Below are positions 5,479 through 44,238 of a DNA stretch of 55,589 nt, piece by piece. Under the pieces are notes generated by a model. That model did no database searches. It was given only the letters and a program-made list of their open reading frames with translations, and was not told the DNA's origin. Position 1 is the first letter of the stretch; each line of letters opens with the position of its first letter. The position numbers and the translations under genes are program-made. Source of the DNA: a virus (lineage: Duplodnaviria; Caudoviricetes); IMG/VR virus record IMGVR_UViG_3300030107_006898, positions 1-55,589 of that record. The stretch is one strand, 5' to 3'.

Positions 5479-5760
5479 ATGTCTGAAGAAATGATGATGC
5501 AACCAAGACAATCAACTCTTAATACGGAGATGGGTCCTGAAGCATCTCAAATGATGATGCAAGCAGACCCGGAAATTCAGGTTGTTTTATTGTCACGCCT
5601 TGAATCATTGACTCCGCAAGAGCTTCAAGCTCTCGACAGGGCAATTGATGGTGAAACTGCCAAAATTCTTATGAAGCTACTCCCTGAGCTTGAAGAACTT
5701 ATCAACGCTATTGGTGGTCAGCAACAGGCTCCCCAACAAGGTGCTCTGGCAGGGATGTAA
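5479..5760 (+). CDS. Hypothetical virion-module protein
   Basis: GGAGG RBS, in operon; ends QQGALAGM. Confidence 0.6.
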   Translation: MSEEMMMQPRQSTLNTEMGPEASQMMMQADPEIQVVLLSRLESLTPQELQALDRAIDGETAKILMKLLPELEELINAIGGQQQAPQQGALAGM

Positions 5761-6197
5761 TGCAAATACGCAAAGCAACAATTTTTGATTTTTCGCCTAT
5801 TTGTGGCCTCCTGCACAGGATGCACAAAGAGGTAGATTTTTGCATCTCTGAAATATCACCAGCAAAATTCTCTTCTGTTGTCCTGCATGCGATAAATCAA
5901 GGCACTGTCGTTGTTGCAATTAAGGATGGCCATTTAATAGGATCAATTGGTGGAGGGTACGCTTCTGAATGGTGGTCAGAAGAGATTATCCTCGGTGATG
6001 TTTGGTTTTATGTTGAGCCAGAAAGCCGGAGCACAAAAGCAGCCAAGGAATTAATAAAAGAGTTTATGGAACTTGGCGATGGAATGAAGATAAAATTAGG
6101 TCATATGTATGGTGCAGACCAAGAAAGAAAAAATAATTTCTATGAACGTCTTGGTTTGAGAAAAGCTGGCATACATTATTTTTCGGAGGCTAGCTAA
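5760..6197 (+). CDS. GNAT-family acetyltransferase
   Basis: IRKAT, FYVEPESR, FYERLGL motifs. Confidence 0.75.
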   Translation: MQIRKATIFDFSPICGLLHRMHKEVDFCISEISPAKFSSVVLHAINQGTVVVAIKDGHLIGSIGGGYASEWWSEEIILGDVWFYVEPESRSTKAAKELIKEFMELGDGMKIKLGHMYGADQERKNNFYERLGLRKAGIHYFSEAS

Positions 6198-15156: not shown

Positions 15157-17964
15157 CTATGAAGTCAGTTTTCTTATATTGTTAACATAAATTTTTCTGA
15201 AGCCTTTTTTGATCTGACCTTTGACAAGAAACCAATCCCCCTCACGAGATTGCTCGACAATCGGCTTCCCCATTTTGTTATATTTAAACCTGTCAATCGT
15301 GCATATTATCGGAGCTGTGTCATCTTCAAATGTCAAGTTCAGCCACAGGTTGTTGTTATCAACTCTTCGGCCACCACGCTTGGCTAAGTTCACAACCTCA
15401 TTCATGTCACGCAGGTTTTTCTCTATCAGCTTGCCGAAGAAGACAAATGTTCCAGGGCTGTCGCCATCTAGATCAACGATGTCAGTAATGTCGGAAACGA
15501 TGTTGTGGGCTTTCGGATTTTCTTTTATGTGTCCCCATCGGCGCTCGCACTCAAATATATCATCATATGGTGTTGACCCATTGTCGAGCAACTTCTCTTG
15601 ACGAGGTGTCAAAGGCTCTCCCATCTTCCTACGACGGATGATGTCCTCTGACATTTTTGGACCGATGCCTTTTATTCCAATAAGACCGCCAATCAATTCA
15701 CTATCTTGAACCGACCAGTTTTCGAGCGATCTGAATTTGTCGAATGGTTTGTATGACATTCCCTCTTTGACCACTTCCCGGAGAAGTTTAACGCCTTGCG
15801 AATCGTCTTTGACATTTCTGAGACAAGCTGCAGCAAACTCCAGAGGAAACTGATACTTAAGAACACAACACCAATAAGACAGCATGCCATAACTGACAGC
15901 ATGACTTCTATTAAACGCCCAACTCCCCATTGTATTGATGTGATCCCAAATGTACCTCGCTTCGCTTTCTTCGATTCCATTCTCTTCTGCTCCGATTTTA
16001 AATTTCTCAAAATACTTATCAAAGAATTCTTGACCTAAAGATTTGCTCATTGCTTTGCGCAACTGAGAAACATCTTCCCAAGACAACTTACCGACATCCC
16101 TACCAATTTGCATCACTTGCTCTTGATAAACAACAACACCATTCGTAACCTCTGTTATGTCTTTTGTTAGTGGGTGGAGATATTCTGTTTTCTCAGCGCC
16201 AGTGTGTCTCTTTATGTATTCTGTTGTCCCTCCAGAGTTAAGCGGTCCAGGACGCGCCAGTGCAGTTATAGCAGCAATGTCTTCGAAATCATGAACTTTC
16301 ATCTGACGAGTAACAGATTGGAGTGCATAACCTTCGAACTGAAATATCCCGGCATATTTCTCGTCATTTAAGATTGCGAATGCATCTTTGTCGTCTAGTG
16401 GGTAATCTATCAATTTTTCTCTTTGCCAACCAACCTGATCAAGTATGTCTTGGAGGATGCTGAGGGTCCTCAAACCCAATGCATCTATCTTCAGCAGGTT
16501 CAAATCTTCAGCATCATACTTGTCTATCTGCGCAGACCCTCCATAGCTGCTCACCGAGCAATAGTTGTGGACTGGCTCTTCTGTGACCAATATTCCTGCT
16601 GCATGAACACCGCTATGCCGAGCGTGATATTCCATGTCAGCGGCAATTTTCATTTGAGGATATTTTTTGAGAATATCCCTGCCGACATCCAACTCGTTGA
16701 ATGTATCCAATATACAGAAGGCTGCTCTTGAGTCTCCTCCGCTCCGCTCGATGATTGCACCTTTGAGATCGTTGACCTCCCACATCGGAATGCCAAGCTC
16801 TTTTGACACTTCAGTTATTGTGCTCTTGGCTTTGTAACGAGAAACTGTTCCGAGGTGGGCAACTTTTTCCGAACCATACTTATTGCGGAGATATTCAAAA
16901 ACCATCTCTCTGCGGTCGTCCTGAAAATCAATATCAATGTCTGGCAGGTCTGCTCTTGTTACGTCGATGAACCTTTCAAAAAGCAAATCGTGCTTAATTG
17001 GATCCACATTTGTTATGCCCAATAGGTAACAAACTAAAGAGCCAGCCGCCGAACCTCTCGCTGGACCAACAAGCATGTGCTTGCGAGCATAATTTACCAT
17101 GTCAGCAATCACAAAGAAATAGTCCTCGAACTCTTTCTCTGCGATCATTCCAACCTCTCTTTTCAATCGGTCGGAATAGTCTTTTGAACTTAAATCAATT
17201 CCTAAATTTTTAGCACCAGCAACACACATGCTTTCAAGTGTCAAATTTGTTTTGTAGCGCACCATCTGAGCTTGTGGTAGGCTTGCATTGCACTGCTCCG
17301 CAACGCCATAGGTGTTGGCAATTGCTTCTTCTGGAAGCCATTTTATTACAGACCTAAGTTCCCACTCATTAAGAATGTGCATGGGTTTGGTCCTAGATTG
17401 CCGATTGCGCCCAGTCAACACTTCGTAAACTTTTTTGTCCTCAATCCTAGGATAAAAATTGTCGCTCACAGCAATTGGCTTGAAGCCCTTGTCAATTGAC
17501 TCGAGACACTTCTTCGTGCTCATTGGGCCAATCTCAATATAGAGATTTTCTTTGTGGGTTGCTGGGAGCATCCCCCAGTTGGGATTTGTCCCTGACAGGA
17601 TTACTACATTTTCTGATATATCAAAAAGGTCGGAATAATCGAGGCGAGGGATGTAATAAAAATTGTCTGTTGACCGAGTTACTAACTCATATATCTCTTT
17701 CAGCCCTTGGTTGTTTTTGGCGATGAATGACATATAATTTGCTGGTTGCTTCTCTCTTGATCTGGCATCATCAACAAATGCGATCTCCACACCATATATA
17801 GGCTTCTTGCCTGCCTCTTTACAGCTGCGTTGGAAAGCAGCATGCCCCCACGTACCTGTGTCGCATATGCCCAAGCAATCACCCTCTACTGCATCTATGA
17901 CTTTGCTCAATGGGCCATAGGCTGTCCGAAATGAATATTCTGTGCGGAGCTTCAAATTAAACAT
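15157..17964 (-). CDS. dnaE: DNA polymerase III alpha subunit (family C)
   Basis: PHP-like N-terminus, GPARGSAAGSL, LLFERF, PDIDID, HAAG, GIFQFE, YQEQVM, AFNRSHA. Confidence 0.95.
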   Translation of the reverse strand: MFNLKLRTEYSFRTAYGPLSKVIDAVEGDCLGICDTGTWGHAAFQRSCKEAGKKPIYGVEIAFVDDARSREKQPANYMSFIAKNNQGLKEIYELVTRSTDNFYYIPRLDYSDLFDISENVVILSGTNPNWGMLPATHKENLYIEIGPMSTKKCLESIDKGFKPIAVSDNFYPRIEDKKVYEVLTGRNRQSRTKPMHILNEWELRSVIKWLPEEAIANTYGVAEQCNASLPQAQMVRYKTNLTLESMCVAGAKNLGIDLSSKDYSDRLKREVGMIAEKEFEDYFFVIADMVNYARKHMLVGPARGSAAGSLVCYLLGITNVDPIKHDLLFERFIDVTRADLPDIDIDFQDDRREMVFEYLRNKYGSEKVAHLGTVSRYKAKSTITEVSKELGIPMWEVNDLKGAIIERSGGDSRAAFCILDTFNELDVGRDILKKYPQMKIAADMEYHARHSGVHAAGILVTEEPVHNYCSVSSYGGSAQIDKYDAEDLNLLKIDALGLRTLSILQDILDQVGWQREKLIDYPLDDKDAFAILNDEKYAGIFQFEGYALQSVTRQMKVHDFEDIAAITALARPGPLNSGGTTEYIKRHTGAEKTEYLHPLTKDITEVTNGVVVYQEQVMQIGRDVGKLSWEDVSQLRKAMSKSLGQEFFDKYFEKFKIGAEENGIEESEARYIWDHINTMGSWAFNRSHAVSYGMLSYWCCVLKYQFPLEFAAACLRNVKDDSQGVKLLREVVKEGMSYKPFDKFRSLENWSVQDSELIGGLIGIKGIGPKMSEDIIRRRKMGEPLTPRQEKLLDNGSTPYDDIFECERRWGHIKENPKAHNIVSDITDIVDLDGDSPGTFVFFGKLIEKNLRDMNEVVNLAKRGGRRVDNNNLWLNLTFEDDTAPIICTIDRFKYNKMGKPIVEQSREGDWFLVKGQIKKGFRKIYVNNIRKLTS

Positions 17965-18496
17965 ACAAATGCCTCTCTTTCACATACCACCGAATAATTT
18001 CAATTAAGGCTCTGACATCAGCTATCGCTCGGTGGGCACCTTTGTGCTCTTCCCCAGTAACTTCGAAGTATATGTCTCCGAGTTTTCTCTTTTTGTTCCA
18101 CACAGTCTCACCAACTTCAACTGTGCAAGTGTGCTCAGGTGGCCAAGGGAAGCTCGTCACTCTCCCCAACCGCTCAAGCTCAAACGTCAATATCGTTTTG
18201 TCGAATGGTAGGTTATGAGCAACAAGGTTCCTCTCACCAAGAAAAAACTCGCAAACCTCATCGACCCTCGCAACAAATGGCTTCTGGTCTTTCAGATCAT
18301 CATCCGTTATGCCAGTGATCTTTGTTATCTGAGGCTCAAGAGGTATCCCAGGATTGCACATGAATTCAAGAGTTCCGATCTCATTGAGCTCTTCGTCCAA
18401 CTTCACTGCGCCAAACTCTGTTATCCGAGGTTGGAGGTCAAGGTCTGCACCTTCGGCTTTTGGGAGACCTGTCGTCTCAAGATCAAACACTATCAT
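17957..18496 (-). CDS. dnaQ: DEDDh 3'-5' exonuclease (Pol III epsilon-like)
   Basis: DLETTG, AHNLPFD, AHRAIADV. Confidence 0.9.
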   Translation of the reverse strand: MIVFDLETTGLPKAEGADLDLQPRITEFGAVKLDEELNEIGTLEFMCNPGIPLEPQITKITGITDDDLKDQKPFVARVDEVCEFFLGERNLVAHNLPFDKTILTFELERLGRVTSFPWPPEHTCTVEVGETVWNKKRKLGDIYFEVTGEEHKGAHRAIADVRALIEIIRWYVKERHLYV

Positions 18497-18977
18497 GATT
18501 TATCCTTACTATGAATTTGACATCAACACCGAGTATTTCTTTTGTGTCAAATATGACATAATTGTATGTCCGCTTCCCAGCGATGACTGGATTGGTGTGA
18601 GACTCTGTCACAACCTCCTGAGCAACAGAAATGTTCCTCTTCTTGAAAAAATCACGCCACTCTAATAATTCATCAGCAGTGCAGTGCATCCCAAGATGGC
18701 TAACAGAGTTGACTTTTCTAGGCCAATCATTTTTTGCTTCTCTGCTATCCATCCAGTTCTTGCCAGTGGTGTAGTTCAGAACTTCAAATTCATTGCCATC
18801 TATCAAGTCATAGTTGAAAGACAGATCTGCTTCATTGCGGCCAATGGATCCAAAAACTTTTCCCTCTGCCACAACATGATCTTCTGCCCATTCTCCAGCT
18901 CCCATTTCTTCTAGAAGCCTTTTTGCTTTTTCTGGGTAACGTGGGCAAATTGCAATTTGTTCAATTTTGAATTTCAT
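18483..18977 (-). CDS. VOC/glyoxalase-superfamily protein
   Basis: IEQIAI, FEVL, SHLGMH, FDT..ILG.DVKFI pattern resembling methylmalonyl-CoA epimerase-like VOC enzymes. Confidence 0.55.
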   Translation of the reverse strand: MKFKIEQIAICPRYPEKAKRLLEEMGAGEWAEDHVVAEGKVFGSIGRNEADLSFNYDLIDGNEFEVLNYTTGKNWMDSREAKNDWPRKVNSVSHLGMHCTADELLEWRDFFKKRNISVAQEVVTESHTNPVIAGKRTYNYVIFDTKEILGVDVKFIVRINHDSV

Positions 18978-18979
18978 AA

Positions 18980-19654
18980 TTAAGCTCCATATGGCAGGAT
19001 ACAACCTGTCAAAAATTTGTGGTGAGTTTTATCTTGAAGAAGATATGCTATAAATCCAGCAAGCAATTCTGGTGGCGTCTCTTCTCCAGTCAACAGTCCA
19101 TTAAGCTGATACTCTTGAGCAAACTCTTTTGTCCACCCGCGTGTGGCAACAACCTGATCATCAATTGAGTCACTCATCCCTGTGCCAGACATTTTATTGG
19201 GTGCCACACCAAAAACCGTTATGCCATGCTTCTTCGTGAGTTCACGAGCTAGCTGCAAAGTCATTATGTGCGCTGCACCTTTTGATGCATTGTAGGCCAG
19301 AGAGCATGTCATAGGCATGTGGGCTGCATTGCTGACGATGTTAACAATCGTCCCTTTGCTTTTTATAAGCATAGGCAAACAAGCTTGAGACATCATGTAA
19401 ATGCCTTTGGCATTTGTATCCATGACCATGTCCCACTCACCCTCAACGAATTTTTCGAGCCAATTAATTATGTTGACACCTGCATTGTTTATCAGGATGT
19501 CAAGCTCCTCTGGCAAGTCAGACAAGTCTGGGCGGCGAACATCATCACCATTGCCAATATCATAGCCAACAACATTGTGACCTTGATTCGTAAGCTCCTC
19601 AGAAAGAGCCAAGCCAAGACCCTTGCCACTTCCTGTTATAAGAATATTACTCAT
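18980..19654 (-). CDS. Short-chain dehydrogenase/reductase
   Basis: TGSGKGLG, LINNAG, S...YNASK catalytic motif. Confidence 0.9.
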   Translation of the reverse strand: MSNILITGSGKGLGLALSEELTNQGHNVVGYDIGNGDDVRRPDLSDLPEELDILINNAGVNIINWLEKFVEGEWDMVMDTNAKGIYMMSQACLPMLIKSKGTIVNIVSNAAHMPMTCSLAYNASKGAAHIMTLQLARELTKKHGITVFGVAPNKMSGTGMSDSIDDQVVATRGWTKEFAQEYQLNGLLTGEETPPELLAGFIAYLLQDKTHHKFLTGCILPYGA

Positions 19655-19950
19655 TTGTCGTTTTCCTTTCTTTCTTCAGGCATCAAAGATTCAACCATAG
19701 CAGCATAAACAGCAGCATCGTGGATGCTATCTTTGTGTGATAAATTGGTGTTGGCAAACCTCGTCAACTTAACAACCATCAATTCGAATAGGTGCCATTT
19801 GTTGAATTGGTCTTTGCTGGAAAGCTCGATGCCATCAGGGAACAAAGCCATCATAACTTCGCCAACAGACTTATAATTGTCGCCATAAATTTTATTGCGC
19901 TCTCTAAATGTCTCAGCCATTGACAGCAATATTTTATCAGCACTCGGCAT
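19651..19950 (-). CDS. Nmad1/DUF6378-like alpha-helical nucleotide-modification-associated protein
   Basis: ERNKIYG...KLTRF...H.DSIHDAAVYAAM motif; probable ATG at 19950. Confidence 0.55.
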   Translation of the reverse strand: MPSADKILLSMAETFRERNKIYGDNYKSVGEVMMALFPDGIELSSKDQFNKWHLFELMVVKLTRFANTNLSHKDSIHDAAVYAAMVESLMPEERKENDK

Positions 19951-20188
19951 TATTCTTCCCCTCTGCATAGCCATCTGCTTTGCCCTCTTCGTAGGCTTCC
20001 GCTCGGCTCTTCTCAAGCTCAATCACATCTGTGTGTAAACTAGAGGTCTCCGAGCTGAGTTGTTCATATTCATCAGCTTGGCGCACATAATCTTCCAGTG
20101 CCATTCTCAAGCTAGAATTTATATCGAGAACTCTTGCAACTTTTTGGCCATCAATCTCGATATCATTACCAATCAGTCTTATACTCAT
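19937..20188 (-). CDS. Hypothetical protein
   Basis: TGATG-coupled start (MSIRLIG...). Confidence 0.55.
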   Translation of the reverse strand: MSIRLIGNDIEIDGQKVARVLDINSSLRMALEDYVRQADEYEQLSSETSSLHTDVIELEKSRAEAYEEGKADGYAEGKNNAEC

Positions 20189-20622
20189 CAAAAGTCTCCT
20201 TCTTGGACTTGTAAGCATCTGAGGCCAGATTTCCTCCACATGTCAACAACAGACTTCCGGTCATCAAGAACAAACCAAACGTCTGAAATTTTTATGAAGT
20301 TGTCCAATATGTCTTTCTTGACAACATAGTCAGGACGCTTATCTCCAGCCACCCTCATGAAAAGATCATCATAATATATGTCATTTAGATGTAGCCAATC
20401 TTTTGTCTGCATCAAATAACGATTATCTCTCCCTGTAACAAGAAAAATTTTAACTTCATCCGATCTTAGTTGCCTGAGGATATTTGCAATATCCTCGTTG
20501 ACAGAATCATCAATGCAACGAGAGTTAAATTCGTCCCACTCTTTTCGCTCCGCATATTCTAGACGATGATCACAATTGCAGAGCGTCCCATCAAGGTCAC
20601 ATATTATTATTTTCTCTTCCAT
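20188..20622 (-). CDS. HAD phosphatase (T4 PNKP phosphatase-like)
   Basis: CDLDGT, VTGR, LFMR...DKRPD..VK, DDR. Confidence 0.85.
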   Translation of the reverse strand: MEEKIIICDLDGTLCNCDHRLEYAERKEWDEFNSRCIDDSVNEDIANILRQLRSDEVKIFLVTGRDNRYLMQTKDWLHLNDIYYDDLFMRVAGDKRPDYVVKKDILDNFIKISDVWFVLDDRKSVVDMWRKSGLRCLQVQEGDF

Positions 20623-20638
20623 CTTTTCCTCTCTGGTA

Positions 20639-21283
20639 TTAGGGATTAAGAGCTTTGCCCATGGATGGTGCTGCCCATTCAGTTGGCGTCAAGAATGGCA
20701 ATGCCCAAGGATGGACTTTGACGACCTCTGCTATCATGGCTTTAAAAACTTCTTGATGCTCTCCTTGAGCTCTTGGGCTAAGTCTTGACTTGGCAGTTTC
20801 ATGCAGGTTCCTCAAATCAAATTTAGCCACAATGTTGGTGTGGATGTTTGTTGGAAGAACGCCACGCGCATCTTCTGCAGGGACAAGCTCTTTTAGATCT
20901 TGATATGCTTTGTTTATGAGAACCATCGTCTCATCATAGATTGCCTTGGCAATGTCATTCTCTTGTATGCGCATTGGAGTTGTGTAACCAAAGCCCTCCA
21001 TGTCTACTGTGCGTTGAGACTGTTGTGCATAACTCCCCATCCTGTTCCTAACAAATTGGTGGGTGAATGCTCTGCTGACATCCCGGATCTCGAATGTGTA
21101 ATCAACGAACTCCCAACTAGATTTTATTGTTTGAAGCATGTAGTCTAGTTCTTCTTGCTTCTTTTCATCTGACCAGTCTTTGATCATTTCATATGCATCA
21201 GGAACATTCATCAAGCGAGTGTTCTTGGTGAACAGAAGAAGGTTCTTCGCATCTTGGGTATAATTAACGAGTTTAACTTGCAT
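20639..21283 (-). CDS. thyX: Flavin-dependent thymidylate synthase (ThyX)-like protein, variant motif
   Basis: VSRAFTHQFVRNRMGSYAQQSQR (RNR in place of RHR), AEDARGVLP; GGAG RBS before ATG 21283. Confidence 0.8.
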   Translation of the reverse strand: MQVKLVNYTQDAKNLLLFTKNTRLMNVPDAYEMIKDWSDEKKQEELDYMLQTIKSSWEFVDYTFEIRDVSRAFTHQFVRNRMGSYAQQSQRTVDMEGFGYTTPMRIQENDIAKAIYDETMVLINKAYQDLKELVPAEDARGVLPTNIHTNIVAKFDLRNLHETAKSRLSPRAQGEHQEVFKAMIAEVVKVHPWALPFLTPTEWAAPSMGKALNP

Positions 21284-21431
21284 CGATATTCTCCTTGAGT
21301 ATTTTGATTGTTGTTTCGTAGATGTTTTTCCCAACACGAGAGAAAGCATCTTGAGCTGACTCAGCATCTTGTTTTGAAAGTAAAACTACGATCGCCAGAG
21401 CCTGAATGCATATTATGGTGCTCCTGATCAT
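21273..21431 (-). CDS. Small hypothetical protein (52 aa, not in track)
   Basis: ATGA-coupled to the lipoprotein gene; hydrophobic N-terminus. Confidence 0.4.
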   Translation of the reverse strand: MIRSTIICIQALAIVVLLSKQDAESAQDAFSRVGKNIYETTIKILKENIDAS

Positions 21432-21859
21432 GGCTTTATCTCATCAAAAATTTTCGGCTCTTCGGACATGTTGTCGAGTCGGTAAGCAAGCAAGATATAA
21501 ACTCTGAAAGAGTTCTCTTCCTCAACTACCTCTATCTCTTTCCTTTCAAAGCCTGACAAGTTGACATTGTCAATAGTCTCGACAGAAGCAATCTCTGAGA
21601 GGTTCTTGCCATTCGCACCGCGATAATATTTTGACCTGCCATTGACATTTGTCGAAAGGTGGCTGGCAAGAGTTCTCTTCGCACTCATCTCAGAGACATC
21701 TATTGCAAATTGAAGATTTTTGTCTGAGGCATAGCCAGAGGCATATACTTTTCCGCTCTCTGTTGGTGGCTCGGTGTACCAATCTGGTGCATCTGCTAAC
21801 TGGCCGCCTGATGAACACGCACTAAGCAACAATGTAAGAATTATGATTTCCTTTCTCAT
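21428..21859 (-). CDS. LPP20-like lipoprotein
   Basis: Lipobox LSAC, PDWY..P, YASG. Confidence 0.7.
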   Translation of the reverse strand: MRKEIIILTLLLSACSSGGQLADAPDWYTEPPTESGKVYASGYASDKNLQFAIDVSEMSAKRTLASHLSTNVNGRSKYYRGANGKNLSEIASVETIDNVNLSGFERKEIEVVEEENSFRVYILLAYRLDNMSEEPKIFDEIKP

Positions 21860-21870
21860 TTTGATCCTTT

Positions 21871-22791
21871 CTAGTTTTTGGTGTGTAGTGATAAATTGTA
21901 TGAGCTGCTTTCGCTCAAGAAATTTTCTATTACAGCAACATCTTTGACAACATCATCCAACAGAAGCTGTCGCCAAGTCGCAAACCTCCCGAGAGAATAT
22001 ATGTTGTGCTCTTTGGTTAAATAAAATATGAAATCTTTTCTGAGGCGCTCATCTATCGGCAATATCTTACCGTATTTCTGACTGCCTGTTTGTGGGTTTT
22101 CTACTGAACGAACACGTATACCAAAATCGTCACGCAGGAAATTCATTATACTAATTCCTGGATTTGAATTTGGCTTCTTGGCATACTCAGCTATGACAAC
22201 ATTGCCGATTATAGAAACTCTGTATTGATCATCAAATGGATCTGGATAATATATCGTTTGATAAACATTTATGTCTGGGTCTGAAATTATCCCGGCATGA
22301 GTCCATATCTCAGTCCTTCTGAACTCCGGTACATCTTCCCAGCCGACAATCTTCATCATAGCTGGCATCGGTATTGTGCTTATTATTGGTTCTGATTTTT
22401 GCAGATTTTCTGATGTCAGCCTCTGATTGTAATCTATCTTGCAGTTGAGAGCCATCGAGCTTATCAAATCAAGGGGAGCTATATACCTTGTTGATGGGGA
22501 CAAATCAGATATTGATCTTTGCTCAACAGCGCCAGTCACTTTTTCTGAATAGCTATTGCTGAAAAATAAATTTGGCTCTGTGTAAATTTTTCCTTCAAAC
22601 TTTATCGCCTTGTTGACGAAAACTTTCTTGAAAGGTATCCCGCAAGAGTCACCAACACTTGGTGTTCTAAATCTTAACAATGCGGAGTGATTGTTTGGCA
22701 ACTCGCTTTGAGCCTCTTTGACAACTGGCGACATTCTCCTAAGAATGTTTGCTGCCAGCAAGCCAGCCATTCCTGCTCCGTATATTATCAT
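21871..22791 (-). CDS. FAD-dependent oxidoreductase (UDP-galactopyranose mutase-like fold)
   Basis: IIYGAGMAGL, IISTIP, YSLGRFATWR; probable ATG at 22791. Confidence 0.75.
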   Translation of the reverse strand: MIIYGAGMAGLLAANILRRMSPVVKEAQSELPNNHSALLRFRTPSVGDSCGIPFKKVFVNKAIKFEGKIYTEPNLFFSNSYSEKVTGAVEQRSISDLSPSTRYIAPLDLISSMALNCKIDYNQRLTSENLQKSEPIISTIPMPAMMKIVGWEDVPEFRRTEIWTHAGIISDPDINVYQTIYYPDPFDDQYRVSIIGNVVIAEYAKKPNSNPGISIMNFLRDDFGIRVRSVENPQTGSQKYGKILPIDERLRKDFIFYLTKEHNIYSLGRFATWRQLLLDDVVKDVAVIENFLSESSSYNLSLHTKN

Positions 22792-22802: not shown

Positions 22803-22932
22803 AAAAAGTGGAAGGCTCCGATGATTCTGTCGTCTTCGTTGACGGAATTCATCTATGCATGGAGCCTTCCGAGTTTTGCGTAAAGCTAGGTTACAAGGGA
22901 AACAGCCAAGAGACATCCAGCTTTTCAACTCC
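22803..22932 (-). ncRNA. Candidate two-hairpin sRNA/attenuator with intrinsic terminator
   Basis: ggaaggctcc/ggagccttcc stem (22810-22870) followed by U-tract on - strand; upstream stem gagtt..aaagct/agcttt..aactc. Confidence 0.4.
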
Positions 22933-22946
22933 TGATTAAATAAATG

Positions 22947-22973
22947 ATGGGGGGACAATTGTGTCCCCCCATT
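22947..22973 (-). terminator. GC-rich hairpin terminator after 22977..23564
   Basis: atggggggac...gtccccccat stem with T-rich flanks. Confidence 0.6.
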
Positions 22974-29016: not shown

Positions 29017-29390
29017 TCCTCCTCTCTCATGAAGTTTTCAAATTCAATGGCGACGGGCATGTACCAACCTTTGCGGCGATCCCGCACACCTTCTTCTTTG
29101 TTGCGCTCCCATCTCAGGAAACGCACCACAGGGGAGTTTTCACGCGCAACCATAGAACATATGGAAACAGCGATCGGGTCTCCCCCTCCGGGCCAGAGTA
29201 AATAGTCCTCTGGCCCAAAGTCTTTCATCACCTTGCGAGCCTTGCGCAAACTTGGAGTTGGCAAGAACTGAGGTTTGTCACTGGCTTCGAAAACAGGAAT
29301 CATCTTCCCATAGCGAGCAGCATCTGTCAGATCTGGCACCCAACCAAATTTGTTCTCACGAGGTGTTTGGACAACGTAAACTGTGCTCAT
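29013..29390 (-). CDS. Hypothetical protein
   Basis: ATGA-coupled start (MSTVYVVQ), GDP motif. Confidence 0.6.
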   Translation of the reverse strand: MSTVYVVQTPRENKFGWVPDLTDAARYGKMIPVFEASDKPQFLPTPSLRKARKVMKDFGPEDYLLWPGGGDPIAVSICSMVARENSPVVRFLRWERNKEEGVRDRRKGWYMPVAIEFENFMREED

Positions 29391-29794
29391 GATACTGGCC
29401 AGACATATGGCATGTCGTCCGGCTCCTTCCAGTTGAATTGTGAATAAAACTCTGGATCTTTGCGCAGCAGGTTTGAACGATGGCTTGCGCAAATGTCTTC
29501 ACGACCGAACCATGGTGGCAAAGAGAACAAGTGATCCTTGCGCCAGTCCATAGTATTTTTGAATCCGCGACGGATCCACTCTTCGATGCAGAGATCTTTG
29601 TAAAACTCTAGCGCACTGTCAAAGCCACGCCACATCTTCGTCGCTGGGTGGTTGACCCAACCACCTGTCTTGTCATAGTCGCCGCGCAGAGCCTTCAATA
29701 TTTGATAAGCCTCTACACGTTGTTTGCCCAGTCGCTTGTTGTCAAGACACCGGACAGATTTGCCCAATGAGGGCAATGGTAGAAACGTCTGCAT
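29387..29794 (-). CDS. Pyrimidine-dimer DNA glycosylase/endonuclease V-like (MSMEG_6728 family)
   Basis: MQTFLP, LD.KRLGKQRVEA, NHPA..MWRG, SHRSNLLRKDP, YVWP. Confidence 0.85.
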   Translation of the reverse strand: MQTFLPLPSLGKSVRCLDNKRLGKQRVEAYQILKALRGDYDKTGGWVNHPATKMWRGFDSALEFYKDLCIEEWIRRGFKNTMDWRKDHLFSLPPWFGREDICASHRSNLLRKDPEFYSQFNWKEPDDMPYVWPVS

Positions 29795-29822
29795 AGTATT
29801 GTCCTTTCTCAGCAGTTCAAGA

Positions 29823-29851
29823 ACCATGCGGCAACTTTGCCGCGAAGTCAA
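29823..29851 (-). promoter_or_regulatory. Putative promoter TTGACT-N17-CATGGT with inverted repeat in spacer
   Basis: gcggcaa-ag-ttgccgc palindrome across the spacer; followed by CTGAGAAAGG RBS. Confidence 0.45.
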
Positions 29852-31136: not shown

Positions 31137-31415
31137 ATGAAAGATCATCGTGTAAATAAGCTCGCAAAAGTTCGTGCAGAGATCGCACACCTCAAAGAAG
31201 TCGAAGCTGAATATGTTCGTGCCCTCAAAGAGTCTGGCCCAGGAACCTACGAGGGCGAAGATCACTACGTTGTCGTCAGTGATGTTGAACGCAAGACCCT
31301 CGACATGAAGGCAGTTCGCAAAAAACTCAGCCGCCAATTCATTCAGGCTAACACGAAAGTTAACAATAGCCTGTGCCTCAAGCTCTTCGGATATTCAAAG
31401 AAGGAGGCTGCGTAA
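31137..31415 (+). CDS. Hypothetical protein
   Basis: CTGAGAAAGG RBS at 31120; ATG 31137. Confidence 0.65.
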   Translation: MKDHRVNKLAKVRAEIAHLKEVEAEYVRALKESGPGTYEGEDHYVVVSDVERKTLDMKAVRKKLSRQFIQANTKVNNSLCLKLFGYSKKEAA

Positions 31416-32227
31416 TGGCTAAATTCGACATGAGGCAGGACGTCACCAATCGGATCATTGAACGTATCGAAAGTTGCGGTGAGTTTGAAATGCCATTCAA
31501 AACTTTCGGTGCACACAATGTTCACACTGGACATATGTACAGAGGCATCAACATCCTGTTGACTGCGATGGCTGGTTACAGCTCTCCTTATTGGGGAACA
31601 CCCAAGCAGTGGATTGCTGCTGGTGCTGACATCTCTGGAACCAAGTGCTACAAAATTGTTTTCTGGAAGCCAAGCAAAAAAGAGGACCCAGAAACTGGCG
31701 AGGAGACAACGAGCGTCTTCAGTAAATATTATAACGTCTTAAATTCAGAGCAGGTCAAAAACTGGGAGCCGCCTGTCTCTGATAAAAAGGATGAGACACA
31801 AATCATTTCTGAGGCTGATGCTTACTTCAAAAATGTTGGCGTAAAAACAACTGAGCAATCTGGTCGCGCTTGCTACAATCCCAAGACCGATGTTATCACT
31901 CTCCCGCCACGTGATGATTTCAATTCGACAAAAACTTCGTCGGCAACTGAGACTTATTATTCTACTCTGGCTCATGAGAATGTTCATGCGACCAAGCACA
32001 AGTCTCGGTGTGATCGTGAGATGAGATCATATGCTGCTGAGGAGTTGGTTGCTGAGATTGGAGCAGCGATCCTTTGTCAAAAACTCGGCATCAGTTCAGA
32101 GATGCGTGATGATCATGTTGCTTACATCAAGGGCTGGCTGGAGGCTTTGCGTGGTGACAAGCAGTTTATATTCACAGCTGCGAGCCGTGCACAGGAGGCG
32201 ATTGACTGGATGGATAACAAGCAGTAA
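31415..32227 (+). CDS. ardC: ArdC-family antirestriction protein (ssDNA-binding plus zincin metallopeptidase)
   Basis: YRGIN.L, W.T.KQW, HENVH (HExxH), YAAEELVAEIGA, H..YI.GWL..L. Confidence 0.85.
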   Translation: MAKFDMRQDVTNRIIERIESCGEFEMPFKTFGAHNVHTGHMYRGINILLTAMAGYSSPYWGTPKQWIAAGADISGTKCYKIVFWKPSKKEDPETGEETTSVFSKYYNVLNSEQVKNWEPPVSDKKDETQIISEADAYFKNVGVKTTEQSGRACYNPKTDVITLPPRDDFNSTKTSSATETYYSTLAHENVHATKHKSRCDREMRSYAAEELVAEIGAAILCQKLGISSEMRDDHVAYIKGWLEALRGDKQFIFTAASRAQEAIDWMDNKQ

Positions 32228-43890: not shown

Positions 43891-44238
43891 ATGGCCCATC
43901 CCCATGCACCACAGCCATTAGGCTGGAAAGTTCTGGTAAAACCATTCGAAGCACCAGACAAAACTGATGGAGGAATCTACCTTCCTTCTCAAGCCAAAGA
44001 CGCAGAAGAATACCTCACAGCACATGGCCACATTATTTCTATGGGCGAGCTTGCTTATAGAGAAAGAGAGAGTGGCCACAAGTGGAAAGGTCATTGGCCA
44101 AGCATCAATGATCATGTCACTTATGGCAAATACGCTGGTCAAAAAATTGTGGTTGATGGCGAAAAATTTCTGATTCTTAATGATGATGAAATAACATCAA
44201 TCCTTCCTGATGATTGTGAGGTAAATAATCATGTCTGA
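43891..44238 (+). CDS. groES: Co-chaperonin GroES-like
   Basis: PLGWKVLV, KTDGGIYLP, V.YGKYAG, ILNDDEI. Confidence 0.85.
   Translation: MAHPHAPQPLGWKVLVKPFEAPDKTDGGIYLPSQAKDAEEYLTAHGHIISMGELAYRERESGHKWKGHWPSINDHVTYGKYAGQKIVVDGEKFLILNDDEITSILPDDCEVNNHV

What the first reader, a model, noticed from the sequence alone, without database searches (positions are those of the whole stretch)
18483..22791. Candidate new thymidine-hypermodification pathway next to the polymerase
Seen: a co-oriented run of FAD enzyme (UGM-like GRFATW motif), ThyX-like protein, HAD phosphatase, Nmad1/DUF6378-like protein, SDR and VOC-fold enzyme leading straight into dnaQ-dnaE. Established: thymidylate-synthase homologues plus phosphatases/pyrophosphatases mark pre-replicative base-modification clusters, and Bacillus phage SP-15 carries 5-(4,5-dihydroxypentyl)uracil. 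Inference: a sugar-derived chain is built by the flavoenzyme, SDR and VOC enzymes, attached at C5 of dUMP, and incorporated by a dedicated DnaE. The SDR+VOC pair suggests distinct chemistry. No dNMP kinase or glycosyltransferase was recognised.
Basis: partly seen in the sequence, partly recalled or inferred. Interest (0 to 1): 0.8.

Follow-up and report, generated by a model that had tools for sequence, protein, structure and literature searches.

The report
Candidate phage thymidine-hypermodification gene cluster
A marine phage carries, just upstream of its DNA polymerase, a conserved set of enzyme genes that is the best current candidate for making the sugar-decorated thymine recently found in the DNA of related phages.

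Summary
The gene run is real and on the minus strand: UGM-fold flavoprotein, small lipoprotein, ThyX, HAD_PNKP phosphatase, 83-aa ORF, DUF6378 protein, SDR and VOC-fold protein, leading into DnaQ-DnaE.

The order is conserved. ThyX follows the flavoprotein in 76 of 76 related viral contigs. HAD and DUF6378 are present in 66 of 66. SDR and VOC are both present in 24, both absent in 42, and never alone.

The core (flavoprotein, ThyX with R-x-R in place of RHR, HAD-DUF6378) recurs in Pbunavirus, Wifcevirus, Ss1-like podophages, Rhizobium phages and, remotely, actinophages.

A 2025 preprint found sugar-like thymidine hypermodifications at TG in Pbunavirus F8 and 14-1 DNA and named no biosynthetic genes. 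Wifcevirus phages resist restriction without a known mechanism. Most module-bearing genomes, this one included, do not avoid TG/CA-containing palindromes, while three control phages do.

I read the cluster as a thymidine-hypermodification pathway, with DUF6378-SDR-VOC as a swappable tailoring cassette (confidence 0.55). The chemistry is inferred, no DNA-level enzyme was recognised, and ordinary dTMP supply remains the main rival.

The parts
22947..22972 (.). Strong GC-rich hairpin (11-12 pairs, 7 G-C), terminator-like on both strands. It separates the upstream gene from the cluster and marks the start of the transcription unit.
   Evidence: An annotated terminator sits at the same place in phage Mansfield.
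21871..22791 (-). UGM-fold FAD flavoprotein (306 aa from the ATG; 310 aa from the upstream TTG at 22803). It has an N-terminal GAGMAG dinucleotide-binding motif and a C-terminal GRFATWR motif.
21428..21859 (-). 143-aa lipoprotein-like ORF (signal peptide with LLSAC lipobox). A variable insert, probably not part of the pathway.
   Evidence: sequence; no family; present in 9 of 66 related loci
20639..21283 (-). ThyX-family flavin-dependent thymidylate synthase homologue with RNR in place of the RHR motif.
20188..20622 (-). HAD phosphatase of the PNKP 3'-phosphatase type, with a DLDGT catalytic motif.
   Evidence: (PF25109 1.3e-34, full length)
19937..20188 (-). 83-aa acidic, coiled-coil-like ORF between HAD and DUF6378.
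   Evidence: conserved in 56 of 66 loci; no family
19651..19974 (-). DUF6378-type small protein. It is the C-terminal domain of HAD-DUF6378 fusion proteins in PB1, Mansfield, FoX7 and Rhizobium phage Y65.
18980..19654 (-). Classical short-chain dehydrogenase/reductase (TGSGKGLG and YNASK motifs).
18483..18974 (-). VOC-fold protein of the methylmalonyl-CoA-epimerase-like type.
17957..18496 (-). DnaQ-like 3'-5' exonuclease. Its start overlaps the end of the VOC gene.
15157..17964 (-). DnaE-type replicative DNA polymerase.

Best explanation
The operon from 22791 down to DnaE encodes a thymidine (5-substituted deoxyuridine) hypermodification pathway that protects the phage DNA from host nucleases.

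**Core.** A UGM-fold flavoprotein, a ThyX variant lacking the His of the RHR motif, and a PNKP-type HAD phosphatase with its DUF6378 partner.

**Proposed mechanism (all steps inferred).**
1. The ThyX variant supplies the C5 one-carbon unit on dUMP.
2. The flavoprotein, like UGM, handles a phosphate-bearing sugar through a flavin-sugar adduct and delivers an open-chain or furanose sugar unit to the pyrimidine C5 substituent.
3. The HAD-DUF6378 pair removes a phosphate from the sugar-phosphate adduct or nucleotide.
4. The SDR oxidises a side-chain alcohol and the epimerase-like VOC protein rearranges the carbon next to the new carbonyl. The product would differ from that of phages lacking these two genes.
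5. The modified nucleotide is either used by DnaE-DnaQ or the last steps occur on DNA at TG.

**Shown:** family and fold assignments, conserved linkage, cassette behaviour, and the compositional signature.
**Inferred:** every substrate and product.
For: 1. **Linkage in relatives.** ThyX lies downstream of the flavoprotein in 76 of 76 related viral contigs with at least 1.5 kb of sequence there. HAD and DUF6378 are present in 66 of 66 contigs that span ThyX to DnaQ.
2. **The same core in unrelated phage groups.**
   - PB1 and 14-1.
   - Mansfield (Wifcevirus) and FoX7, with SDR and VOC.
   - Ss1 and VA-RY-3.
   - Rhizobium phage Y65, next to dUTPase and RNR.
   - Microbacterium phage Ajin: flavoprotein, phosphatase, SDR, VOC, DUF6378, DnaE, with ThyX 8 kb away.
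3. **Matching distributions in isolates.** The flavoprotein is in 362 phage records. The best ThyX matches come from the same taxa in the same numbers: Pseudomonas 292 and 292, Escherichia 27 and 27, Serratia 9 and 9.
4. **ThyX variant tracks the flavoprotein.** The motif is R[N/T/Q]R in 7 of 7 ThyX that co-occur with a flavoprotein, and RHR in 3 of 3 viral ThyX without one. It is also RHR in three solved cellular ThyX.
5. **Chemistry in relatives.** Pbunavirus F8 and 14-1 DNA holds novel nucleosides of 362 U and 390 U. They replace about a quarter of T, at TG, and are described as tetrose-alcohol and cyclised aldopentose derivatives. No genes were assigned (PMC12191111). By my arithmetic these masses also fit dU carrying a C5 pentitol chain or a C-hexosyl group.
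6. **Restriction phenotype.** Wifcevirus Bas98-101 are insensitive to the tested RM systems except EcoP1_I (PMC11990801).
7. **Palindrome signature.** 6-bp palindromes containing TG/CA are not depleted in 6 of 7 module-bearing sets. Observed/expected: window 0.95, PB1 1.01, 14-1 part 0.92, Mansfield part 0.99, Ss1 part 1.02, pooled marine contigs 1.03. They are depleted in 3 of 3 controls: lambda 0.73, T7 0.65, phiKMV 0.61. In the window, 0 of the 10 most depleted words contain TG/CA.
8. **Cassette behaviour.** SDR and VOC come and go together: 24 both, 42 neither, 0 single. The label needs at least 7 changes on the backbone tree. The DUF6378 type tracks the pair: 58-81% identity to the window with SDR/VOC against 37-57% without, while DnaE, ThyX and flavoprotein medians are equal. 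Such diversification is typical of arms-race traits.
9. **Precedents.** Thymidylate-synthase homologues have switched to flavin chemistry, and a bona fide UGM sits in a predicted phage DNA-glycosylation cluster (PMC13326640, passages).
Against: - No data exist on this phage's DNA. Only assembled contigs of public runs were on offer, so no raw signal could be read.
- In Pbunavirus the genes behind the modification are unmapped and could be among the many unknown ORFs.
- PB1 and 14-1 have almost identical core genes (94-98% identity; ORF57 83%), yet F8 and 14-1 are reported to carry different adducts.
- ThyX passes NCBI's equivalog cut-off and keeps the dUMP-binding arginines, so it may be an ordinary thymidylate synthase.
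- TG specificity needs a DNA-level, sequence-reading enzyme. No glycosyltransferase, DNA kinase or base-exchange enzyme was recognised in the genome.
- The UGM assignment is by fold. PPO and MAO score only 1.7 to 3.6 Z units lower, and the protein is shorter than any solved UGM.
- The palindrome signal in the window alone is weak (MWU p 0.098). FoX7 is an exception (0.75). There are only three controls, and several sets are partial genomes.
Confidence: 0.55

Rival explanations
1. This is ordinary nucleotide supply. ThyX makes dTMP for replication. The flavoprotein is a redox or one-carbon helper of this ThyX clade, for example reducing its flavin or supplying methylene from another donor. The HAD-DUF6378 pair trims nucleotide pools. 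SDR and VOC are unrelated auxiliary metabolic genes. The Pbunavirus modification is encoded elsewhere.
For: - ThyX scores above the TIGR02170 equivalog cut-off and keeps Q75, R78, R80, S88, R90, R147 and R174 in T. maritima numbering.
- In Rhizobium phage Y65 the trio sits among dUTPase and RNR genes.
- In Ss1-like phages ThyX is followed by a protein with the DUF3310 domain of the T7 gp1.7 nucleotide kinase.
- The strict pairing of flavoprotein and R-x-R ThyX fits a helper role as well as a modification role.
Against: - ThyX enzymes need no separate flavoprotein (established knowledge, recalled).
- A helper role does not explain the UGM fold.
- It does not explain the tight SDR-VOC-DUF6378 cassette dynamics.
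- It does not explain the TG/CA palindrome signature.
- It does not explain why the only recognisable small-molecule enzymes of Pbunavirus replication regions are these three, when their DNA is modified.
Confidence: 0.28
2. This is a DNA-repair set travelling with the replisome. The PNKP-type phosphatase cleans 3'-phosphate ends left by a Pyr_excise-type glycosylase/lyase, and the other enzymes are incidental.
For: - The HAD matches the PNKP 3'-phosphatase domain over its full length.
- Pyr_excise-family genes sit between ThyX and HAD in many related contigs, next to the flavoprotein in phage Ajin, and at 29387-29851 in this genome.
Against: - PB1, Mansfield, Ss1 and FoX7 have no Pyr_excise gene (0 of 4) but keep the core.
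- Repair does not explain the flavoprotein, ThyX variant, SDR or VOC.
Confidence: 0.07
3. These are sugar-nucleotide genes for altering the host cell surface. UGM-like, SDR and VOC would make a furanose or rare sugar for LPS or capsule change, for example to block superinfection.
For: - UGM fold.
- A lipoprotein gene lies inside the cluster.
- A secreted-looking small protein occupies the same position in Mansfield.
Against: - No glycosyltransferase or flippase is present.
- The cluster always lies in the early/replication operon with ThyX and DnaE.
- The host range of carriers spans Gram-negative and Gram-positive bacteria with unrelated envelopes.
Confidence: 0.05

Closest known systems
Thymidine hypermodification of Pbunavirus F8 and 14-1 (bioRxiv 10.1101/2025.03.31.646159; PMC12191111)
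   Same: These phages share the flavoprotein, the R-x-R ThyX, the HAD-DUF6378 protein, DnaQ and DnaE in the same order. Their DNA carries sugar-like T derivatives at TG. They show the same lack of avoidance of TG/CA palindromes.
   Different: The genes were not assigned in that work. Pbunavirus lacks SDR and VOC: none of the 55 VOC-bearing records is a Pseudomonas phage. HAD and DUF6378 are fused there and split here. The virion type and host are different.
Wifcevirus (E. coli phages Mansfield, WFC, Bas98-101)
   Same: The full gene set, including SDR and VOC, is in the same order. VOC is 53% and SDR 48% identical. These phages resist the tested RM systems.
   Different: They are myoviruses of about 68 kb. 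HAD-DUF6378 is fused. Their DNA chemistry has never been reported in the papers I could search.
5-hmdU-based thymidine hypermodification (phages M6, ViI, SP10, phiW-14; PMC5889632 and PMC8989533, listings and abstract starts only)
   Same: Partial replacement of T by a bulky C5 substituent. A thymidylate-synthase-type enzyme stands at the head of the pathway. The clusters lie in replication regions.
   Different: Those pathways use ThyA-type dUMP hydroxymethylases, a DNA 5-hmdU kinase and aGPT-Pplase, PLP or radical-SAM enzymes (recalled from those papers). None of these was recognised here. Here the synthase is ThyX-type and the partners are a UGM-fold flavoprotein, HAD, SDR and VOC.
Bacillus phage SP-15, 5-(4',5'-dihydroxypentyl)uracil
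   Same: A polyol chain on uracil C5. SP-15 has an SDR gene directly followed by a divergent ThyX-family gene, with a HAD-like gene about 4 kb downstream.
   Different: The genes are not orthologous. The flavoprotein profile finds nothing, and the SDR and HAD show no significant similarity. SP-15 has no VOC or DUF6378 in the regions read. That its modified base is made as a nucleotide before replication is recalled, not checked here.
UDP-galactopyranose mutase (Glf)
   Different: 12-14% identity. No Pfam GLF hit. The protein is 306-310 aa, against 359-511 residues for the solved UGM chains listed. PPO and MAO score close behind. The family is essentially phage-restricted.
Arabinosylated 5-hydroxycytosine pathway and the UGM of Rhizobium phage RL38J1 (PMC13326640, passages)
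   Same: It is a precedent for flavin use by thymidylate-synthase homologues and for a mutase supplying furanose sugars to phage DNA.

Membership tests
ThyX (flavin-dependent thymidylate synthase) | Thy1 domain above Pfam's gathering score and NCBIfam's equivalog cut-off | tested here: met
   PF02511 133.5 bits against 24.8; TIGR02170 104.1 bits against 87.9
ThyX (flavin-dependent thymidylate synthase) | ThyX motif RHR(X7)S (the motif is recalled from the literature) | tested here: not met
   The window has RNRMGSYAQQS. The His is replaced by N/T/Q in 7 of 7 flavoprotein-linked ThyX, while RHR is kept in 3 of 3 other viral ThyX and in the solved M. tuberculosis, C. glutamicum and T. maritima enzymes. 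The Ser is kept.
ThyX (flavin-dependent thymidylate synthase) | dUMP-binding residues (T. maritima Q75, R78, R80, S88, R90, R147, R174) | tested here: met
   Pairwise HMMER alignment to T. maritima ThyX. H53 is F and Y91 is T, but H53 is also M in solved 6j61.
ThyX (flavin-dependent thymidylate synthase) | Forms dTMP from dUMP | not testable with these tools
   Needs an enzyme assay.
UDP-galactopyranose mutase | UGM fold with an FAD-binding Rossmann domain | tested here: met
UDP-galactopyranose mutase | Sequence membership (Pfam GLF domain) | tested here: not met
   No Pfam family at E up to 0.01. A profile of 33 relatives reaches only 4dsg, at E 0.4.
UDP-galactopyranose mutase | Full uridine-binding helical domain and both diphosphate-binding arginines | tested here: inconclusive
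   The protein is 306-310 aa, against 359-511 residues for the solved UGM chains listed. The YR and GRF..WR arginines align. The mobile-loop arginine could not be mapped.
HAD_PNKP phosphatase | Full-length PF25109 match and DxDGT nucleophile motif | tested here: met
   119.8 bits, profile positions 2-143 of 143; DLDGTL in the sequence
DUF6378 | PF19905 above the gathering score | tested here: inconclusive
   21 bits against 27.1. Close relatives carry PF19905. 29 of 30 Atlas neighbours are in the DUF6378 set.
Classical SDR | TGxxxGxG cofactor motif and YxxxK catalytic motif | tested here: met
   TGSGKGLG and YNASK; adh_short 7.1e-35
VOC superfamily (methylmalonyl-CoA epimerase / glyoxalase I type) | Paired beta-alpha-beta-beta-beta modules | tested here: met
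VOC superfamily (methylmalonyl-CoA epimerase / glyoxalase I type) | Canonical His/Glu metal ligands on strands 1, 4, 5 and 8 | tested here: inconclusive
   Invariant E5, Q6, E62, E64, H93, H97, D151 and K153 lie on those strands. No residue-level superposition was possible.
Known 5-hmdU thymidine-hypermodification pathway | ThyA-type dUMP hydroxymethylase, 5-hmdU DNA kinase, aGPT-Pplase (features recalled) | tested here: inconclusive
   Nothing of the kind was seen in Pfam or PHROG scans of the genome's ORFs. Not all of these families have library models.

The most novel reading that the evidence does not exclude
The UGM-fold flavoprotein is a new kind of flavin-dependent pyrimidine C5-alkylating enzyme. 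As in UGM, reduced flavin N5 forms an iminium adduct with C1 of a sugar or sugar phosphate. As in ThyX, that carbon is then passed to C5 of deoxyuridylate. The product is a C-C-linked polyol, or after ring closure a C-glycosyl, deoxyuridine.

By my arithmetic, dU carrying a 1-deoxypentitol-1-yl group weighs 362.33 and dU carrying a C-hexosyl group weighs 390.35. These equal the two Pbunavirus nucleosides.

The HAD-DUF6378 pair would remove the sugar's terminal phosphate, and SDR plus VOC would re-tailor the chain.
Probability: 0.12. Interest if true: 0.95.

Novelty: new variant of a known kind. Interest (0 to 1): 0.78.

Why it matters
Pbunaviruses are among the phages most used against Pseudomonas. 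Their newly found DNA modification has no known genes.

This cluster gives a short, testable candidate list of three core genes plus a three-gene optional cassette. That list is shared by Pbunavirus, Wifcevirus and a very abundant group of marine phages. The flavoprotein alone has 4091 relatives at E up to 1e-5, and this phage's DNA is found in marine, estuary and seawater runs of 13 studies beside the possible source study.

If the assignment holds, it adds a thymidine-modification route built on ThyX and a UGM-fold flavoenzyme instead of ThyA homologues and DNA kinases. It would explain restriction resistance in Wifcevirus, and it predicts that a large share of ocean phage DNA is modified at T. 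That matters for sequencing, for restriction-based methods and for phage-host modelling.

Tried and rejected
- **DUF6378 as a relative of the T7 gp1.7 nucleotide kinase.** hhalign probability was 0.2% against gp1.7 and 0.3% against Ss1 orf32. Dropped. Only the positional analogy remains: a DUF3310 protein sits after ThyX in Ss1.
- **Fusion partners of DUF6378.** Of 35 representatives scanned (out of 150 listed and 2061 found), 12 have HAD_PNKP and none has another Pfam domain.
- **Pyr_excise glycosylase as the missing DNA-level core enzyme.** Absent from PB1, Mansfield, Ss1 and FoX7.
- **The gene upstream of the flavoprotein as a conserved partner.** Not homologous between lineages.
- **SP-15 orthology.** None found.
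- **Other modification-type genes near the PB1 cluster.** None recognised.
- **Cellular homologues of the flavoprotein.** Only 3 loci were found, all on metagenome-assembled contigs. The scan depends on two exact motifs, so it is insensitive.
- **Atlas search of the 220-aa protein after DnaE.** No family.
- **Earlier notes of this scan.** Nothing found by place, sequence or words.
- **A fold of ThyX (two copies) with the flavoprotein.** Nothing can be said about binding.
- **Literature.** No paper linking these genes to DNA modification was found.
- **Supplements.** The supplements and extended-data figures of the END-nuclease preprint could not be seen. The fragmentation spectra that define the adducts may bear on the chemistry proposed here.

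Full report
**What is there.**
The window is a whole 55,589-base virus record. It has a podovirus-like structural module: terminase, portal, SU10-type adaptors and internal virion proteins. A minus-strand early/replication block runs from about 29.9 kb down to 10.7 kb.

Within that block, a strong hairpin at 22947-22972 is followed by a tightly packed, co-oriented run of genes:
- flavoprotein, 21871-22791
- 143-aa lipoprotein-like ORF, 21428-21859
- ThyX, 20639-21283
- HAD phosphatase, 20188-20622
- 83-aa ORF, 19937-20188
- DUF6378-type protein, 19651-19974
- SDR, 18980-19654
- VOC-fold protein, 18483-18974
- DnaQ, 17957-18496
- DnaE, 15157-17964

Family assignments rest on Pfam, PHROGs and NCBIfam.

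Two proteins have no family hit and were assigned from AlphaFold models.

A profile of 33 flavoprotein relatives reaches only T. cruzi UGM among solved structures. The E-value of 0.4 is not significant by itself. It does align the motifs ISTIPMP, YR and GRFATWR with ISTVPFD, YR and GRFGAWR.

The two small ORFs were missed, and the 'Nmad1' label could not be verified.

**Conservation.**
The flavoprotein family is large: 4091 proteins at E up to 1e-5, many on 50-58 kb contigs from marine surveys.

I examined the 80 best of 522 related viral contigs.
- ThyX follows the flavoprotein on the same strand in 76 of 76 contigs with at least 1.5 kb of sequence downstream.
- HAD and DUF6378 are present in 66 of 66 contigs that span ThyX to DnaQ.
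- The 83-aa ORF is present in 56 of 66 and the lipoprotein in 9 of 66.
- SDR and VOC are both present in 24, both absent in 42, and present singly in none of these 66. The one contig outside this set that shows SDR alone ends before the VOC position.

Many of these contigs are near-copies, so the counts overstate independence.

On a tree of flavoprotein, ThyX and DnaQ (60 rows, 52 distinct; 7 of the 66 contigs were left out for incomplete coverage), the SDR/VOC label needs at least 7 changes.

The DUF6378 protein is 58-81% identical to the window's where SDR and VOC are present, and 37-57% where they are absent. The medians for DnaE (73 and 73), ThyX (74 and 74) and the flavoprotein (59 and 57) do not differ. 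DUF6378-SDR-VOC therefore behaves as one exchangeable cassette, with a short DUF6378-only allele as the alternative.

Between ThyX and HAD, relatives carry variable inserts: a small HTH protein, a Pyr_excise-family protein, and in one case a 2OG-Fe(II) oxygenase.

**Beyond this phage group.**
The core recurs in several other groups.
- PB1 and 14-1 (Pbunavirus): flavoprotein ORF65, ThyX ORF59, a HAD-DUF6378 fusion ORF57, DnaQ and DnaE, without SDR or VOC.
- Mansfield (Wifcevirus) and Xanthomonas phage FoX7: the same, plus SDR and VOC.
- Cronobacter phage Ss1 and Vibrio phage VA-RY-3: flavoprotein and ThyX. In Ss1 the next gene carries the DUF3310 domain, which is also the C-terminal domain of the T7 gp1.7 nucleotide kinase.
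- Rhizobium phage RHph_Y65: flavoprotein, ThyX and a HAD-DUF6378 fusion beside dUTPase and RNR.
- Microbacterium phage Ajin, a phage of a Gram-positive host: Pyr_excise-like protein, FAD oxidoreductase, phosphatase, SDR (34% identity), VOC (35%), a protein ending in DUF6378 (47%), then DnaE. ThyX lies 8 kb downstream. Its oxidoreductase is only weakly similar to the flavoprotein (hhalign probability 47%).

Among isolated phages, the flavoprotein is in 362 records and the VOC protein in 55. The closest ThyX matches come from the same taxa in the same numbers as the flavoprotein: Pseudomonas 292 and 292, Escherichia 27 and 27, Serratia 9 and 9.

**The ThyX variant.**
Against T. maritima ThyX, the window's protein keeps Q75, R78, R80, S88, R90, R147 and R174. 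It has F for H53, N for H79, Q for E86 and T for Y91.
- E86Q also occurs in M. tuberculosis ThyX.
- H53 is M in solved 6j61.

So only the loss of the RHR histidine is distinctive. It is R[N/T/Q]R in 7 of 7 ThyX from genomes with a flavoprotein: the window, PB1, Mansfield, Ss1, Y65, Ajin and Gordonia phage Beyoncage. Beyoncage's flavoprotein was found afterwards, at 38% identity to Ajin's. It is RHR in 3 of 3 viral ThyX from genomes without a flavoprotein: phiCP39-O, PBC1 and Stygiolobus rod-shaped virus. The numbers are small, but the pairing is clean.

**External evidence on the DNA.**
A 2025 preprint on END nucleases (PMC12191111; passages, section 8 in full) reports the following.
- F8 DNA resists the five tested enzymes whose sites contain TG and is cut by the five whose sites do not.
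- LC-MS of F8 and 14-1 DNA shows novel nucleosides of 362 U and 390 U, replacing about a quarter of T.
- They name no biosynthetic genes and stress that gene-based prediction would have missed this family.

I could not see their extended-data spectra.

The BASEL completion paper (PMC11990801; section 16 in full) states that Wifcevirus Bas98-101 are insensitive to all tested defence systems, RM systems included, except EcoP1_I, without a known protection mechanism.

Later papers citing the preprint add no genes (passages only). My searches found no paper tying a UGM-like gene, DUF6378 or this ThyX clade to DNA modification.

A 2026 paper (PMC13326640; passages) gives two precedents. Thymidylate-synthase homologues have turned to flavin-dependent hydroxylation. 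A bona fide UGM sits in a predicted DNA-glycosylation cluster of a Rhizobium phage.

**A compositional test.**
If T in TG is shielded, restriction sites containing TG (or CA on the other strand) should be under no pressure to disappear. I compared observed and maximal-order-Markov expected counts of the 64 six-base palindromes, of which 16 contain TG/CA.

| Set | TG/CA words | Other words |
|---|---|---|
| Window | 0.95 | 0.78 |
| PB1 (59 kb) | 1.01 | 0.75 |
| 14-1 (19 kb part) | 0.92 | 0.69 |
| Mansfield (20 kb part) | 0.99 | 0.69 |
| Ss1 (17 kb part) | 1.02 | 0.68 |
| 15 related marine contig pieces, pooled | 1.03 | 0.94 |
| FoX7 (14.5 kb part) | 0.75 | 0.76 |
| lambda (control) | 0.73 | 0.63 |
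| T7 (control) | 0.65 | 0.62 |
| phiKMV (control) | 0.61 | 0.45 |

- Six of the seven module-bearing sets show no avoidance of TG/CA palindromes. FoX7 is the exception. All three controls avoid them.
- In the window, 0 of the 10 most depleted words contain TG/CA (hypergeometric 0.022), but the rank test is weak (p 0.098).
- PB1 gives p 0.004.

Limits of this test: few controls, partial genomes, and non-independent marine pieces. I count it as modest independent support that the window shares the Pbunavirus type of protection. In this genome 27.6% of T are followed by G.

**Mechanism.**
What is shown is fold, family, linkage and cassette behaviour. Every substrate is inferred.

The most economical reading is a pathway that hangs a sugar-derived chain on the C5 position of deoxyuridine.
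- The ThyX variant and the flavoprotein are a functional pair.
- The PNKP-type HAD with DUF6378 removes a phosphate from a sugar-phosphate adduct, from a nucleotide, or from DNA.
- The SDR has an Asp after the second strand (VVGYD). From general SDR knowledge, not tested here, this suggests NAD rather than NADP, and so an oxidative role.
- The SDR together with the epimerase-like VOC protein would re-tailor the chain.

By my arithmetic, 362.33 fits thymidine plus a tetrose, a 5-hmdU tetritol ether, or dU with a C5-linked 1-deoxypentitol. Likewise 390.35 fits a 5-hmdU pentoside or a C-hexosyl-dU. A direct flavin-mediated transfer of a sugar carbon to C5 is therefore not excluded by the published masses.

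The weak point is the reported TG specificity. It calls for a DNA-level enzyme, and I recognised none.

**Rivals.**
- Ordinary dTMP supply with a helper flavoprotein is the main alternative (0.28).
- A repair set built around the PNKP-type phosphatase and Pyr_excise (0.07) fails because four core-bearing phages lack Pyr_excise.
- Cell-surface sugar metabolism (0.05) fails on context and on the lack of transferases.

**Verdict.**

The cluster is a new variant of a known kind of system (phage thymidine hypermodification), with an enzyme set unlike the characterised ones. Confidence in the pathway reading is 0.55 and interest is 0.78.

Noticed in passing
window 29387-29851 (-); likely start at 29797: A Pyr_excise / MSMEG_6728-family protein (PF03013 4.7e-22; NF038085 1.6e-42). 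Homologues sit inside the cluster, between ThyX and HAD, in many related contigs, and next to the flavoprotein in Microbacterium phage Ajin. They are absent from PB1, Mansfield, Ss1 and FoX7. It could be UV repair, or a DNA-level partner in some lineages.
   Followed up: partly
window 31373-32227 (+): An ArdC-like anti-restriction protein (ArdcN 2.3e-18 plus zincin MPTase-PolyVal 2e-38). The phage may combine protein-based anti-restriction with DNA modification.
   Followed up: no
window 21428-21859 (-); Mansfield gp71 (L001 13879-14325): A lipoprotein-like ORF with an LLSAC lipobox lies between the flavoprotein and ThyX. An unrelated small protein with a signal-peptide-like N-terminus occupies the same slot in phage Mansfield. 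This looks like a moron insertion hot spot.
   Followed up: partly
L026 10323-10883 (+): One related marine contig carries a 2OG-Fe(II) oxygenase between ThyX and HAD (PF13640 7e-11; weak Tet_JBP hit 6.8e-4, below cut-off). It may be another tailoring option at this locus.
   Followed up: no
SP-15 record KT624200, 115025-116910 and 120554-121105 (L103): Phage SP-15, known for dihydroxypentyl-uracil, has an SDR gene directly abutting a divergent 413-aa ThyX-family gene. A nucleoside 2-deoxyribosyltransferase lies upstream and a HAD-like 'polynucleotide kinase' about 4 kb downstream. A canonical ThyX lies elsewhere in the genome. These are not orthologous to the window's genes but are of the same enzyme types.
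   Followed up: partly
window 19937-20622 and 19651-19974 (-): HAD and DUF6378 are one fused protein in PB1, Mansfield, FoX7 and Rhizobium phage Y65. Here they are split by an 83-aa ORF in another frame. HAD and DUF6378 lie in the same frame.
   Followed up: partly
window 5760-6197 (+) and 43891-44238 (+): A GNAT acetyltransferase lies among virion and ejection-protein genes. A GroES-like co-chaperonin (Cpn10 7.5e-16) lies upstream of the capsid genes.
   Followed up: no
window, whole: Several 6-bp palindromes are absent or strongly depleted: AACGTT 0 observed against 7.6 expected, CCCGGG 0 against 6.7, GGCGCC 0 against 4.9, AAGCTT 6 against 34.6. This points to the restriction systems the phage meets. 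None of these words contains TG/CA.
   Followed up: partly
L003 4224-5276 against L088 3976-5280: PB1 and 14-1 differ sharply in ORF70 (32% identity; 350 against 434 aa), while neighbouring genes are 85-100% identical. This may relate to the END-nuclease inhibitor difference described in the preprint.
   Followed up: no
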